From: Negaprion brevirostris
Taxonomy: Eukaryota
Direction of reading: 5' to 3'
Length of the DNA: 64,000 nucleotides
NCBI GenBank assembly: GCA_030324005.1
Contig: JARDVH010000073.1
Span: 88,161,495-88,225,494, forward strand
The notes below the pieces were generated by a model. It ran no database searches. It saw only the letters and a program-made list of their open reading frames with translations, and was not told the origin of the DNA. Position numbers and translations under genes: made by a program. Shown here in pieces: positions 41,766-59,782 of this stretch (positions within the stretch are counted from its first letter, which is position 1; every line of letters begins with the position of its first letter).

Positions 41766-41874
41766 CTGTTACCGCTACAGCTTCTGTTAGGCACAGTGTG
41801 ACATGCTGACCATCACCTACTCCCTGGAACTCAGCCATACTTTGGGTTTCTCTGTTTATCTGTGCCAATAACAT
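41766..41874 (-). CDS. ZNF143: ZNF143 exon 2, first canonical coding exon: [36 protein letters not shown](D)
   Basis: The translation matches the ZNF143 N-terminus (MLLAQINR...[11 protein letters not shown]). The acceptor is ttattag|AT-ATG, so the exon starts at 41876. The donor is CAG|gtaaa, phase 1. Confidence 0.95.
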
Positions 41875-42612
41875 ATCTAATAAAATGACATTTGATTAGA
41901 GTTAATGGGCGTCACCCACTTCCAGCAAGAAACAACACATCAACACAAGTAGTCAACGAAAAACAAAGTGTACATTTGTGTTAGAATTATATTGAGATAG
42001 TAATACATCAATTAGTGGGAATAAAATGGTATTTTGAAAAATTATAAAGATAAAACAGTTTGCAAAATCTGCAGTTTATTAGGTTTCAATTGTGGTTTAA
42101 AAAATCTGCTATTGCAAAATAAAACTGCTCATGTTGCAGTGTCTCATGCTACATATCATCATGTTCCACTTCCTCTCTGAAACATTCCCACAATGTGAAA
42201 TTGAACAAAGACGAAATGGATATTAAAAGTAACAATCTAATAATATCAAAAAACAGCAGCTTTAATTCCCCACATGGCAAATAAATTCAGCTAAGCCATC
42301 AAGGGGACTATCGGGGCAGATGGTGAGGTGAGACATGGGTAAGGAAAAAAGAAATAGATGTATGAAAAGTTATACTAGGTATTCCTGCATATCACTTAGT
42401 GGTCAGCAGCACTGACAAGACAACTGTCCAACTTCAAGGGAACGGTATCTGCCAGGTGACGTTACTTAAAGACATAGTACTGTATACAGAGCAACTTGAC
42501 TTCCTTCAAATCATCAAAAACATAATTTGCAAATCTCACAAGTAGAAGAGGCCTTGATAATATGCCAAATTGAATAATACTGTTTAAGTGAAATCCTTCT
42601 TTCAAAGTTTAT

Positions 42613-57400: not shown

Positions 57401-58914
57401 TTTTGAAAATTGCAACAGGGTACAATGGTATAAGTGGACCAGGATCATACATACATTATCTATAAAGTTTAAAAAAACGATTACTGATCAATGTGCACTT
57501 ATAGCATTTTCTATTTGTACATAAATATGGTTGACTGGCAATAAATAGTACAAAGAACCTAGCTCATAGGTTCACTTTGTCTGTGTGATGCTAGAAAACA
57601 ACACAAGTTGCCAAGTCTCTTCATACAGAAAGCCCAGTAATAAGTACAGAAAGAAAAAAATATCTGTGACCAAGTCTTCTCATACAGAAAGACCTGTAAT
57701 AAGTAAGGAGAGAGAAAAAAATCTGTGGTCATATATTTGTATTTACTGATAGCACCAAAATAAAATGCCAAGAGAAAAGGCTCTAAACTACAGACTCTTT
57801 TAAGTTACCATATCATGTTCTCCTAAAGTTAGTTTGTAACATAGGCTGTGTAAACATGGGCATGCTTGGGTCCGTATTTAGCTTCTAGCAGATGTTTTAA
57901 TACATATTAGTCCTTGAATTTTTCATTTATTTGTAAATGTAGACAGTAAAAAGTTTGGACAGTCCTTTGTGTTTCGATATAGTGATTTTGAAGGAAATAT
58001 TATGTAACCGTTAAACTCATAATAATGGATTCAGATGAAAAACAAACGAAAATTAAACGTGCAAAAATGTATACAACTTAGGTACAAGGCCAATTTTGGT
58101 AACGGAAAGATAATTGTCAAGACTTCACCTGACATTAAACACATTAATAATGTTATTAATAAATTATACATTCCAGTGTTGAGTTCAGTAACCAGGGTCC
58201 ACTTTAATATCGTTTACAGTACCAAGTACAGTCATTTTTAAACGCAAAACGTAATTTACAAAGAATACAAATCCTGAAAAAGCACATAGAATAAAGGCAG
58301 CAGAAATATAGCACAGATCAACCAGCATCTGCTGAAAAAAAGGGGCTAACATTTCGGATTCAGATCCCTTCATCCGAACAACCCTTTCACATGTTTACAG
58401 AACTCCCAAGTGTACATTGTTAACGTCTCCTGCTATTATTTCACTTCAACACATTAGCAGTGCCCAACTCTGCAAGGGAGAAGAGCCAGGCGAGCTCATT
58501 CAGACTCAATGTGGGTAACAGAGCACAAAACCATATGTCACGGTTGGACTGTTTTTCCTGACGACGTGGTAAAAGGTCAGGTAACAAAAGCCGGATAATC
58601 CTTTCTATCAGGAAAACAAAAACAAATAACTACACAGTAAATGAGAACGGTCGGTGATCCCACAGCAACATCCGCTCAGCTCCTGCAGTTGATAGTTAGG
58701 GATGACAAATCTGAAAATGTACCGAGCAGCAAACAACAGAGAGAGAGGGAGAGGACAGAGAGGGAGGGAAGCCACTCTTAATTATCTAGCACAACAAACT
58801 AACTTCCAAACGGCGACTAAACTGCCAACTAGTCGACGTTTTGCCTGGCCAACACTTCTCCCCCTCCAAGCCACCCCATCACAAGTAAAACCTTGGCTGA
58901 TCTGGGTAAAAGAA

Positions 58915-58991
58915 ATAGGGCATACTGGGTAAAAAAAAATTACTAACCTCTTTTTTTCCAACAATTCCTCCCTTCGCCCACCATGCACCAG
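58915..58991. promoter_or_regulatory. Cluster of three Staf/ZNF143-binding-site (SBS) matches
   Basis: TCGCCCACCATGCACCAG (58974-58991, +), TTTCCAACAATTCCTCCC (58955-58972, +, degenerate) and TTACCCAGTATGCCCTAT (58932-58915, -), compared with the Staf consensus YYWCCCRNMATSCMYYRCR. Confidence 0.7.
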
Positions 58992-59010
58992 GAGCGGAAA
59001 CCCAAGGGCG
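58948..59010 (-). other. ZNF143: ZNF143 first (leader) exon; 5' boundary approximate
   Basis: It lies at the edge of the CpG island and reads TCCTGGTGCATGGTGGGCGAAGGGAGGAATTGTTGGAAAAAAAGAG|gttagt. This resembles the human ZNF143 5'UTR as I recall it (CCTGGTGCATGGTGG...GGAATTGTTGGAAAA). Confidence 0.75.
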
Positions 59011-59782
59011 GCCGCTCCGGCTCCAACGCCGGCCCCTCACCCTGAATCCCAGCATCAGCCCGCCGGCCGGCACCGCCCCCTTCCCCGCCTCCCACAGGCC
59101 AGCGCCTCCTGATTGACAGTGCGGTTCCGCCCCCTCACCGCAATCTAGTCCCGCCTCCCCTCCTCCCATTGGCCAGTTCCTCCTGATTGACAGCACAGCT
59201 CCGCCCCATCCCATGTCCAATCCCACCTCCCCCTCTTCCAATTGGTCAGTTACTCCTGATTTACAGCGAGGCTCCTCTTCCTCCCCAAGTCCCTTACCGC
59301 CTCCCTCTCTCCTCCTATTGGTCCGCAACCCGCCCGCACAGCCAACCGTCGGTGCTTCCCATTGCTCAGCCTCCACGTCCATCAAATAGCGTCACTAGGA
59401 TCGGCCCCGCCCCCTCCTCCCGCCAACGTTTCCCATTGCTCAGTCCCCACGTCAATCAAAGACCGTCACTGGAACCGTCCCCGCGGTAGGAAGCGAAGAC
59501 ATGGTGGTTGAGAATTATTCATCTTCCTGGGTACCTGCCGACGCCATTTTTTTTCTCTTAACGTTACAGTGCTGGGAATGGTTGATTTTAATTGACATTG
59601 GTCGTATTTAAAACCTCGGGGAGCCGTGTCTGTGATTTCGAGGGGAAGATTTTAAAGGAAGGGCGAAGCCGGGCCAGCAGGGCGCATCTCGGACCGGGAT
59701 TCGCGCGCCGATAAAAGGACGCGAACGCTGCCGCTGACTGTGACGTCATGGATAGGCGCAGCGCCCCCTGCTGAGGTGCAGG
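58970..59782. promoter_or_regulatory. CpG-island promoter of ZNF143 with GC boxes, CCAAT boxes, PBX/PKNOX decamers, and YY1, CRE and CTCF-like motifs
   Basis: Sharp rise in GC and CpG content. Motifs: CCGCCCC repeats; ATTGG at 59168 and 59241; TGATTGACAG at 59110 and 59184; CGCCATTTT at 59542; TGACGTCA at 59741; GCGCCCCCTGCTGA at 59761. Confidence 0.88.

What the first reader, a model, noticed from the sequence alone, without database searches (positions are those of the whole stretch)
58915..58991. ZNF143 appears to carry its own binding sites in and beside exon 1: a candidate ancient autoregulatory module
Seen: three matches to the Staf/ZNF143 site fall within 77 bp around the first donor. 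Two are close matches (58974-58991 on +, 58915-58932 on -) and one is degenerate (58955-58972). The two exonic matches are the same words I recall from the human leader (CCTGGTGCATGGTGG and GGAATTGTTGGAAAA). Established: mammalian ZNF143 is reported to limit its own level by binding near its start site and switching TSS usage. Inference: this feedback loop predates the split between cartilaginous and bony fishes.
Basis: partly seen in the sequence, partly recalled or inferred. Interest (0 to 1): 0.7.

Follow-up and report, generated by a model that had tools for sequence, protein, structure and literature searches.

The report
Self-sensor shared by ZNF143 and ZNF76
The first exon of this shark's ZNF143 gene carries close copies of the two DNA sites with which human ZNF143 limits its own output, and a matching element sits in the first exon of its sister gene ZNF76, so this feedback switch is likely older than the duplication that made the two genes.

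Summary
The window holds shark ZNF143 (minus strand). Two of the three reported sites are real: they are the orthologues of human SBS/B (17/18) and SBS/C (15/18), the published 'sensor platform' of Ngondo and Carbon (PMC3936768), who already aligned it to zebrafish and Xenopus and called it conserved in all vertebrates. The third 'site' is a conserved word but not supported as a binding site. New here: (1) the same element (60/69 identical, including the splice donor) is in exon 1 of the paralogue ZNF76 in this genome, spliced at the same place in three related species, with a trace in coelacanth ZNF76; human ZNF76 shows neither a ChIP peak nor a response. The loop likely predates the ZNF143/ZNF76 block duplication and was lost from mammalian ZNF76. 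(2) Transcript contigs cover a separate ~735-nt intronic stretch that begins at the position of human TSS2 and stops just past an ATTAAA signal: likely a short dead-end RNA (weak hint; strand not shown). (3) SBS/B contains an upstream ATG, in frame here. Binding and regulation in sharks are untested.

The parts
58948..59031 (-). ZNF143 exon 1 (5' end approximate)
   Evidence: Contigs in 4 of 4 runs cover it and continue into exon 2 sequence; two studies' contigs start at 59031. Contigs cannot prove a start.
58975..58992 (+). SBS/B orthologue, antisense to the gene; CCCA core intact here (ACCA in human)
   Evidence: 17/18 to human probe PN380 (by eye); rank 3 of 120,858 with a rough matrix; 2 mismatches to the recalled consensus.
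58982..58984 (-). Upstream ATG inside SBS/B; in frame with the main ORF (13 extra residues), weak context
   Evidence: Reading frame computed; the same 13-residue start is annotated in Chiloscyllium, Stegostoma and Scyliorhinus proteins.
58954..58969 (-).
   Evidence: Identical in human ZNF143, shark ZNF143, shark ZNF76; no CCCA core; rank 3,110; human mut 2 and mut 3 do not affect the switch; the paper mentions a putative NFAT5 site in the element.
58941..58947 (-). First splice donor
   Evidence: Loose ends at 58948 are exon 2 sequence in 4 of 4 runs; same donor heptamer in ZNF76.
58914..58931 (-). SBS/C orthologue, sense strand, in intron 1
   Evidence: 15/18 to human probe PN357 (by eye); ATGC half matches the consensus better than in human; rank 217.
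58912..58918 (-). Initiator (YYANWYY) in the 3' end of SBS/C; its A at 58916 aligns to human TSS2 (+149)
   Evidence: Sequence against human 5' RACE ends; contigs of X2 and X15 end at 58916 and 58920.
58183..58916 (-). Likely short unspliced TSS2 RNA, about 735 nt (strand inferred)
   Evidence: Contigs 58183-58916 (X2), 58192-58920 (X15), 58202-58902 (X1), fragments in X7; no loose ends at either end. No Rfam match.
58185..58208 (-). ATTAAA signal (58208-58203) followed after 9 nt by GGTTACTGA (58193-58185): likely 3' end element
   Evidence: Only one of 12 poly(A) hexamers on the minus strand of 58100-58960; the same two words, about 10 nt apart, stand about 530-553 nt into the human TSS2 leader.
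58891..58915 (-). Short duplication of the 5' half of SBS/C
   Evidence: 14-nt direct repeat D8, spacing 23; scores poorly as a full site (rank 2,082).
59076..59484 (.). Promoter: 74-bp units with CCAAT-like and GC boxes (3 + 2 copies)
   Evidence: Repeat families D1-D3, period 74. Factor names are recalled; human promoter needs NF-YA and GABPA sites.
41766..41876 (-). ZNF143 exon 2, main ATG at 41874

Best explanation
This is the shark orthologue of the ZNF143 'sensor platform', two ZNF143-type sites that flank the first splice donor and likely let the protein shut down its own main start site and divert polymerase to a second, unproductive start; a homologous element in ZNF76 exon 1 shows it is likely older than the ZNF143/ZNF76 duplication. 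Shown: orthology of gene and sites, exon 1 splicing in both genes, the shared 69-bp element, contigs over a separate intronic stretch. Inferred from human experiments: when ZNF143 (or ZNF76, same DNA-binding domain) is abundant, SBS/B and SBS/C fill; bound protein 40-120 bp downstream of TSS1 blocks elongation or initiation from TSS1 and favours the initiator inside SBS/C. Inferred from contigs: in sharks that TSS2 product ends about 735 nt later at an intronic ATTAAA and so encodes no ZNF143 at all, whereas the human clone was spliced to exon 2 behind a long leader. Inferred from the tree and gene order: the single ancestral gene already had the sensor, both copies kept it in early jawed vertebrates (one pooled set-point for both proteins), and mammalian ZNF76 lost it, which would explain why human ZNF76 represses ZNF143 but not itself. 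Step odds: orthology 0.98; binding in shark 0.85; ZNF76 element ancestral 0.8; sense-strand TSS2 RNA 0.65; shark ZNF76 actually regulated 0.55.
For: Gene identity: window gene inside the ZNF143 clade next to Chiloscyllium, C143 gene inside the ZNF76 clade, both 100/100, each clade holding sharks and bony vertebrates (19 rows). Human function: EMSA binding of SBS/B and SBS/C, loss of repression in the double mutant, TSS2 at +148/149. Conservation: 42/48 to human (by eye); exon-1-derived N-termini in 21 of 235 ZNF143/ZNF76 hits, in three different reading frames, from rays, amphibians, mammals and teleosts, gar too; zebrafish guide sequence carries the SBS/B word. Paralogue: the only other match of 58890-59010 in the genome is C143:44650752-44650818, 60/69 identical (38/43 ungapped), 19.3 kb upstream of the first ZNF76 coding exon on the same strand; contigs join it to ZNF76 exon 2 in 3 of 4 runs. 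It keeps the human-type base in SBS/B where the window does not, has its own SBS/C-like site (rank 19), and coelacanth ZNF76 isoforms P0125/P0298 start with 6 of the same first 7 residues as the shark ZNF76 exon 1 reading. Both genes are followed by a SWAP70-family gene on the same strand, as expected of a block duplication. Human ZNF76: not affected by either protein, and no 'ZNF76' row in the ZNF143 peak table, which does list ZNF143 itself in 4 of 4 lines. TSS2 RNA: contigs of two studies stop at 58916 and 58920 without loose ends, and at 58183-58202 in three, 1-20 nt past the only minus-strand poly(A) hexamer; in X2 the exon 1 contig bridges the donor unbroken into exon 2 while the intronic contig is a separate record.
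Against: No binding or expression experiment in any shark. Motif scores alone are unremarkable (23 hits vs 25 expected; SBS/C has a negative 3' half; the matrix has 13 training sites, a fixed core and no GC correction). Both shark sites are closer to consensus than the human ones, while the human model needs low affinity (fully canonical sites abolished TSS1). The human TATA-like box is absent and SBS/B-SBS/C spacing is 44, not 54. Contigs are unstranded, cannot show starts or levels, the runs are only guessed to be RNA, X1 and X7 contigs start 14-25 nt further in, and the plus strand has AGTAAA 27-32 nt before the same end. Shark ZNF76 lacks a consensus initiator in its SBS/C and has no copy of the GGTTACTG word in 30 kb; its SBS/B ranks only 662. 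Shark ZNF143 and ZNF76 share an A-run and donor that bony-fish ZNF143 does not, which short gene conversion could also give. The coelacanth support is two predicted isoforms of one species and covers about 7 codons; no other ZNF76 protein examined showed such a start, and nothing was found for lamprey or invertebrates.
Confidence: 0.72

Rival explanations
1. The ZNF76 copy arose by an old, short gene conversion from ZNF143 in the cartilaginous-fish lineage, so the element is no older than jawed vertebrates.
For: Shark ZNF143 and ZNF76 share the A-run and donor heptamer more closely with each other than with human; the coelacanth ZNF76 reading departs from it after about 7 codons.
Against: Similarity stops sharply at 69 bp with 9 differences; ZNF76 keeps the human-type base in SBS/B that galeomorph ZNF143 changed; Ala at codon 2 is shared by shark and coelacanth ZNF76 and not by the ZNF143 starts seen, bar a possible case in one eel model read in another frame (P0144).
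Confidence: 0.15
2. The intronic RNA is not a TSS2 product: it is either exon-1-initiated RNA with a retained intron cut at the intronic poly(A) signal, or an antisense RNA provoked by bound ZNF143; repression then works by roadblock or convergent transcription without a second sense start.
For: Contigs are unstranded and may break at the T9 run next to SBS/C; plus-strand AGTAAA at 58884; ZNF143 bound within 500 bp downstream of a TSS acts as a roadblock and in about a quarter of cases drives convergent initiation.
Against: The end at 58916 falls on the base that aligns to the human RACE-mapped TSS2; the X2 exon 1 contig shows no break at the donor; an antisense RNA would pass a canonical AATAAA at 58290 and start in AT-rich DNA; the human study found no antisense transcript.
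Confidence: 0.3
3. The element is conserved mainly for translation control or as an RNA element: the ATG inside SBS/B opens an overlapping uORF (human, ZNF76) or an N-terminal extension (shark ZNF143).
For: The ATG and its frame to the middle word are kept in human ZNF143, shark ZNF143 and both ZNF76 readings; the middle word is invariant yet dispensable for the transcriptional switch.
Against: No synonymous change in the 16-nt word across three genes; the frame relative to the main ORF differs between lineages and isoforms; conservation runs on into the intron; the ATG is a by-product of the ATGC of the site read on the other strand; no fold better than shuffles (z +0.65 to +0.96).
Confidence: 0.12
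4. The sites are chance matches in a GC-rich leader.
For: Consensus hits in the window are no more frequent than in shuffles.
Against: 17/18 and 15/18 identity to EMSA-tested human sites at the same places around the same donor, and a second copy at the same place in the paralogue.
Confidence: 0.02

Closest known systems
Human ZNF143 'sensor platform' with TSS switch (Ngondo and Carbon, PMC3936768)
   Same: Same gene; SBS/B antisense in exon 1, SBS/C sense in intron 1; initiator in the 3' end of SBS/C; same conserved middle word and donor position.
   Different: Shark sites are nearer the consensus (CCCA core in SBS/B, ATGC in SBS/C); no TATA-like box; spacing 44 vs 54; the TSS2-like RNA appears short and unspliced rather than joined to exon 2; the upstream ATG is in frame; the element is also in ZNF76, which that paper found unregulated in human.
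ZNF143 roadblock repression downstream of start sites (10.1101/2024.05.13.594008; review PMC12940116)
   Same: Sites within 500 bp downstream of the TSS; 29-bp footprint would cover part of the middle word and the donor region.
   Different: The passages read do not treat the ZNF143 gene itself or ZNF76; here the target is the factor's own gene and its paralogue.
Zebrafish znf143a/znf143b putative autoregulatory sites (PMC6977252)
   Same: Both teleost duplicates are said to keep a putative site, with cross-regulation proposed.
   Different: That duplication is teleost-specific; the ZNF143/ZNF76 split is older than jawed vertebrates' radiation, and the passages read report no such site for znf76.
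Paralogous (duplicated) conserved non-coding elements of vertebrates (e.g. PMC3595034)
   Same: A non-coding element kept beside both copies of a block-duplicated regulator gene.
   Different: This one overlaps the first exon and donor and has a tested function in human; neither gene name was found in that paper's four searchable supplements.

Membership tests
ZNF143 sensor platform (PMC3936768) | Lies at the exon 1 / intron 1 border of an orthologous ZNF143 gene | tested here: met
   Tree; exon 1-exon 2 contigs in 4 of 4 runs.
ZNF143 sensor platform (PMC3936768) | SBS/B in exon 1, antisense | tested here: met
   58975-58992, 17/18 to probe PN380.
ZNF143 sensor platform (PMC3936768) | SBS/C at the start of intron 1, sense | tested here: met
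   58914-58931, 15/18 to probe PN357.
ZNF143 sensor platform (PMC3936768) | Sites are non-canonical, low-affinity | tested here: inconclusive
   Both still miss the consensus (2 and 3 mismatches) and score below the training median, but are each one step closer than human; affinity not measurable here.
ZNF143 sensor platform (PMC3936768) | Second start (TSS2) at an initiator inside SBS/C | tested here: inconclusive
   Initiator sequence present; contigs of two studies end at 58916 and 58920: a weak hint, unstranded.
ZNF143 sensor platform (PMC3936768) | TSS2 transcript yields little or no protein | tested here: inconclusive
   Intronic contigs end near 58185 with no loose end, so would not reach exon 2; a spliced long-leader form like the human clone was not seen but could not be looked for over the whole intron.
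ZNF143 sensor platform (PMC3936768) | TATA-like box after the donor (accessory: its mutation left the human switch intact) | tested here: not met
   Window has a T-run in its place; human mut 4 had no effect, so not treated as defining.
ZNF143 sensor platform (PMC3936768) | ZNF143 binds the sites and TSS use follows protein level | not testable with these tools
   Needs EMSA, ChIP and reporter assays.
Independent third Staf/ZNF143 site | CCCA core and consensus match | tested here: not met
   No CCCA; absent from the 3-mismatch list; rank 3,110.
Paralogous conserved non-coding element from block duplication | Homologous element at the same place in both paralogues | tested here: met
   60/69, same donor, spliced to ZNF76 exon 2 in 3 of 4 runs.
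Paralogous conserved non-coding element from block duplication | Paralogues lie in duplicated gene blocks older than the species split | tested here: met
   Both clades hold sharks and bony vertebrates; SWAP70-family neighbour downstream of both. That this was a whole-genome duplication is recalled, not tested.
Paralogous conserved non-coding element from block duplication | Element present in the paralogue of more than one major lineage (excludes lineage-specific conversion) | tested here: inconclusive
   Only protein-level trace in coelacanth ZNF76; no vertebrate relatives' DNA could be fetched.

The most novel reading that the evidence does not exclude
The autoregulatory sensor was already present in the single pre-duplication Staf gene of early vertebrates; sharks still run one shared feedback loop on both ZNF143 and ZNF76, mammals lost it from ZNF76 (hence the one-way cross-repression seen in human cells), and the second start is a true decoy whose RNA is cut at a conserved intronic poly(A) element about 0.5-0.7 kb in, in humans too, the long spliced clone being read-through.
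Probability: 0.4. Interest if true: 0.68.

Novelty: new variant of a known kind. Interest (0 to 1): 0.5.

Why it matters
ZNF143 is an essential activator of thousands of promoters, and its dose is held by this element. The shark data date the element to before the ZNF143/ZNF76 duplication, give a simple reason for the unexplained asymmetry in human cells (ZNF76 represses ZNF143 but not itself), and offer a natural allelic series (CCCA vs ACCA core) for testing how site affinity sets the feedback point. A conserved intronic 3' end would change the model from 'poorly translated long leader' to 'decoy start with early termination', which can be checked in existing human 3'-end data. The finding as first stated (conservation to sharks) is only a small extension of a 2014 paper.

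Tried and rejected
Third site as an independent ZNF143 site: rejected. RNA structure in the leader: no fold better than shuffles; no Rfam match in 58100-59100. Bacterial promoter/terminator scan: nothing, and not relevant. Coding role for the intronic RNA: the minus-strand ATG ORFs inside it are 27 and 62 codons with no support sought or found. Run search: no RNA holder listed on record; all 11 RNA labels are guesses; 4 of 17 listed runs were laid. Parts without cover (57500-58180, 58921-58947, above 59031) are not used as evidence: a filter leaves records out. Search for the element in lamprey or invertebrate Staf through N-terminal peptides: no trace among 150 listed representatives, most of them unrelated zinc-finger arrays; uninformative because the ATG is often out of frame. 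Other non-coding similarity between the two loci: the other 31 of 32 blastn rows are mostly in opposite or mixed orientation and many hit several places, read as interspersed repeats, not checked one by one. A tblastn for the SWAP70-family neighbour within 30 kb found nothing (query lacked the N-terminal domain); the Pfam search then found it. Degron papers gave no data on ZNF76/Zfp523 (expression tables not held). Earlier scan notes: none. No JASPAR matrix was available; scores come from a recalled consensus and a 13-site home-made matrix (13 of 30 loci kept by CpG ratio >= 0.6, of 85 genome matches).

Full report
Gene and organism. Zinc-finger and activation-repeat exons run along the minus strand of the window. 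The finger 6-7 exon is 98-100% identical to shark and ray ZNF143, and a 19-row tree puts the window gene in the ZNF143 clade (100/100) beside Chiloscyllium. Exon 2 starts at 41876 with the main ATG at 41874. Contigs in 4 of 4 runs laid cover 58948 upward and continue into exon 2 sequence, fixing the donor at 58947-58946; two studies' contigs begin at 59031.

The observation. In the 18-bp register used by Ngondo and Carbon (PMC3936768; I read the main text, parts 1-6 of 8, the oligo table and the text layer of the supplementary PDF; figures, including the four-species alignment of Fig. 2C, were not visible), 58975-58992 (+) is SBS/B, 17/18 identical to probe PN380, and 58914-58931 (-) is SBS/C, 15/18 identical to probe PN357. 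Against the human sequence printed in a supplement of PMC3627581 and in Fig. S4 text, 59001-58954 is 42/48 identical without gaps; these counts are by eye. Motif statistics alone are weak: 23 hits to a recalled consensus against 25.1 +/- 4.9 expected; a 13-site matrix from this genome ranks SBS/B 3, SBS/C 217 and the third site 3,110 of 120,858. The third word is invariant in three genes but lacks the core, its two human mutants did not alter the switch, and a 29-bp ZNF143 footprint on SBS/B (passages) would overlap it. I count two sites, not three.

What is already known. That paper shows binding of both sites by EMSA, 18- and 80-fold weaker than an optimal site, loss of repression in the double mutant, a second start at +148/149 inside SBS/C, a 98-bp element 71% identical in zebrafish, and states that the mechanism is conserved in all vertebrates. 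Passages of PMC6977252 add putative sites in both zebrafish duplicates. Extending this to a shark is a small step.

New point 1: ZNF76 shares the element. A search of the genome with 58890-59010 gave two matches, the window and C143:44650752-44650818, 60/69 identical, covering SBS/B, the middle word, the donor and the core of SBS/C. The gene starting 19.3 kb downstream on that strand is ZNF76: one exon is 97% identical to Cetorhinus and 91% to Callorhinchus ZNF76 but 63% to Pristis ZNF143, and it falls in the ZNF76 clade (100/100). In 3 of 4 runs, from three organisms, contigs join this element to ZNF76 exon 2, so it is ZNF76 exon 1. Both genes are followed by a SWAP70-family gene on the same strand, and both clades contain sharks and bony vertebrates, so the duplication was a block event older than that split. 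The ZNF76 copy keeps the human-type base at SBS/B position 3 and has an SBS/C-like site with a different set of mismatches (rank 19). Two coelacanth ZNF76 isoforms begin with 6 of the first 7 residues that shark ZNF76 exon 1 reads from the ATG in SBS/B; no other ZNF76 protein examined did, which says little because that ATG is out of frame in shark ZNF76. In human, ZNF76 is unaffected by either protein and has no row in the ZNF143 peak table, which lists ZNF143 in 4 of 4 lines (supplement search, file 1 not searched). The simplest reading is ancestral presence and mammalian loss; an old short conversion is the rival.

New point 2: an intronic RNA. Contigs cover 58183-58916 (X2), 58192-58920 (X15, same species label as the best DNA holder), 58202-58902 (X1) and two fragments in X7, with no loose ends at their outer ends. 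Human TSS2 (+148/149) aligns to 58917/58916, in a retained initiator. The far ends lie 1-20 nt past ATTAAA (58208-58203), the only one of 12 poly(A) hexamers on that strand in 58100-58960. The human TSS2 leader has ATTAAA followed about 10 nt later by GGTTACTGA at nt ~530-553; the shark has the same two words 9 nt apart; this was noticed after the fact, and the human A-run could cause internal priming. Of 18 substitution sites among the three relatives, 17 fall in the distal 480 nt and 1 in the proximal 260 nt (p about 0.004, sites not independent and cover uneven). All of this is a weak hint by the tool's own standard: contigs give no strand, start or level.

New point 3: tuning and an upstream ATG. 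The change that restores CCCA in SBS/B turns codon 3 of the exon 1 reading from Val to Gly; Gly is seen in Chiloscyllium, Stegostoma and Scyliorhinus models, Val in Heptranchias, Pristiophorus and rays, so it looks like a galeomorph change. The ATG in SBS/B is in frame with the main ORF in shark ZNF143 (13 extra residues) and out of frame in shark ZNF76 and in the canonical human transcript. Exon 1 appears in three reading frames among 21 of 235 protein models and the middle word has no synonymous change, so the constraint is on DNA, not peptide.

Mechanism. Most likely the two sites fill as ZNF143 plus ZNF76 rise, block transcription from TSS1 (roadblock or occlusion, as in passages of 10.1101/2024.05.13.594008 and PMC12940116) and favour the initiator in SBS/C, whose RNA ends early in the intron. 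Binding and response are carried over from human and are untested in sharks.

Print check. Searches (listings only, except the papers named) and term look-ups in PMC11687419 (passages, two small supplements), 10.1101/2024.03.08.583987 (passages), PMC11754675 (one supplement), PMC1904299 (passages) and PMC3595034 (four supplements, one not searchable) found no report of the element in ZNF76, of an intronic 3' end for TSS2 RNA, or of the upstream ATG. The library lacks most subscription journals, and expression tables of the degron studies were not held, so these could bear on the claims.

Verdict. With the ZNF76 copy and the likely dead-end RNA it is a new variant of that system. Interest 0.5; best explanation 0.72.

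Noticed in passing
window 59076-59283 and 59356-59484: The ZNF143 promoter is built from 74-bp units (3 + 2 copies, 70-84% alike) carrying CCAAT-like and GC boxes.
   Followed up: partly
window 59089-59106 (+): Top-scoring 18-mer of the home-made ZNF143 matrix in the whole window, about 60 bp upstream of exon 1; possibly a fourth site, possibly a GC-content effect.
   Followed up: no
window 59742-59749, 59758-59776 and 59540-59550: A CRE-type palindrome, a CTCF-like word and a YY1-like word upstream of the promoter repeats (motifs recalled, not scored).
   Followed up: no
L002:1113-1428: The ZNF76 promoter has its own 17-22-nt word repeated four times at 81-116 bp spacing, unrelated to the ZNF143 promoter units.
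   Followed up: no
window 58914-58992: SBS/B to SBS/C spacing is 44 here and 54 in human, one helical turn apart; it is 42 in ZNF76 (by eye).
   Followed up: no
G000 whole genome: The THAP11/ZNF143 composite 14-mer occurs 85 times against 23 for the reversed control, and CpG-rich copies carry a ZNF143-type 3' half, so the SBS2 motif is in use in sharks.
   Followed up: partly
window 57611-57727: Two-copy 59-bp tandem repeat in intron 1.
   Followed up: no
protein P0393/P0394 (Narcine): Ray ZNF143 models with an extra exon between exon 1 and exon 2, showing spliced intron-1 exons exist in some chondrichthyans.
   Followed up: no
G000:C115:10045817-10045987: A third, more distant zinc-finger exon (63% to the ZNF143 finger 4-5 exon); identity not examined.
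   Followed up: no
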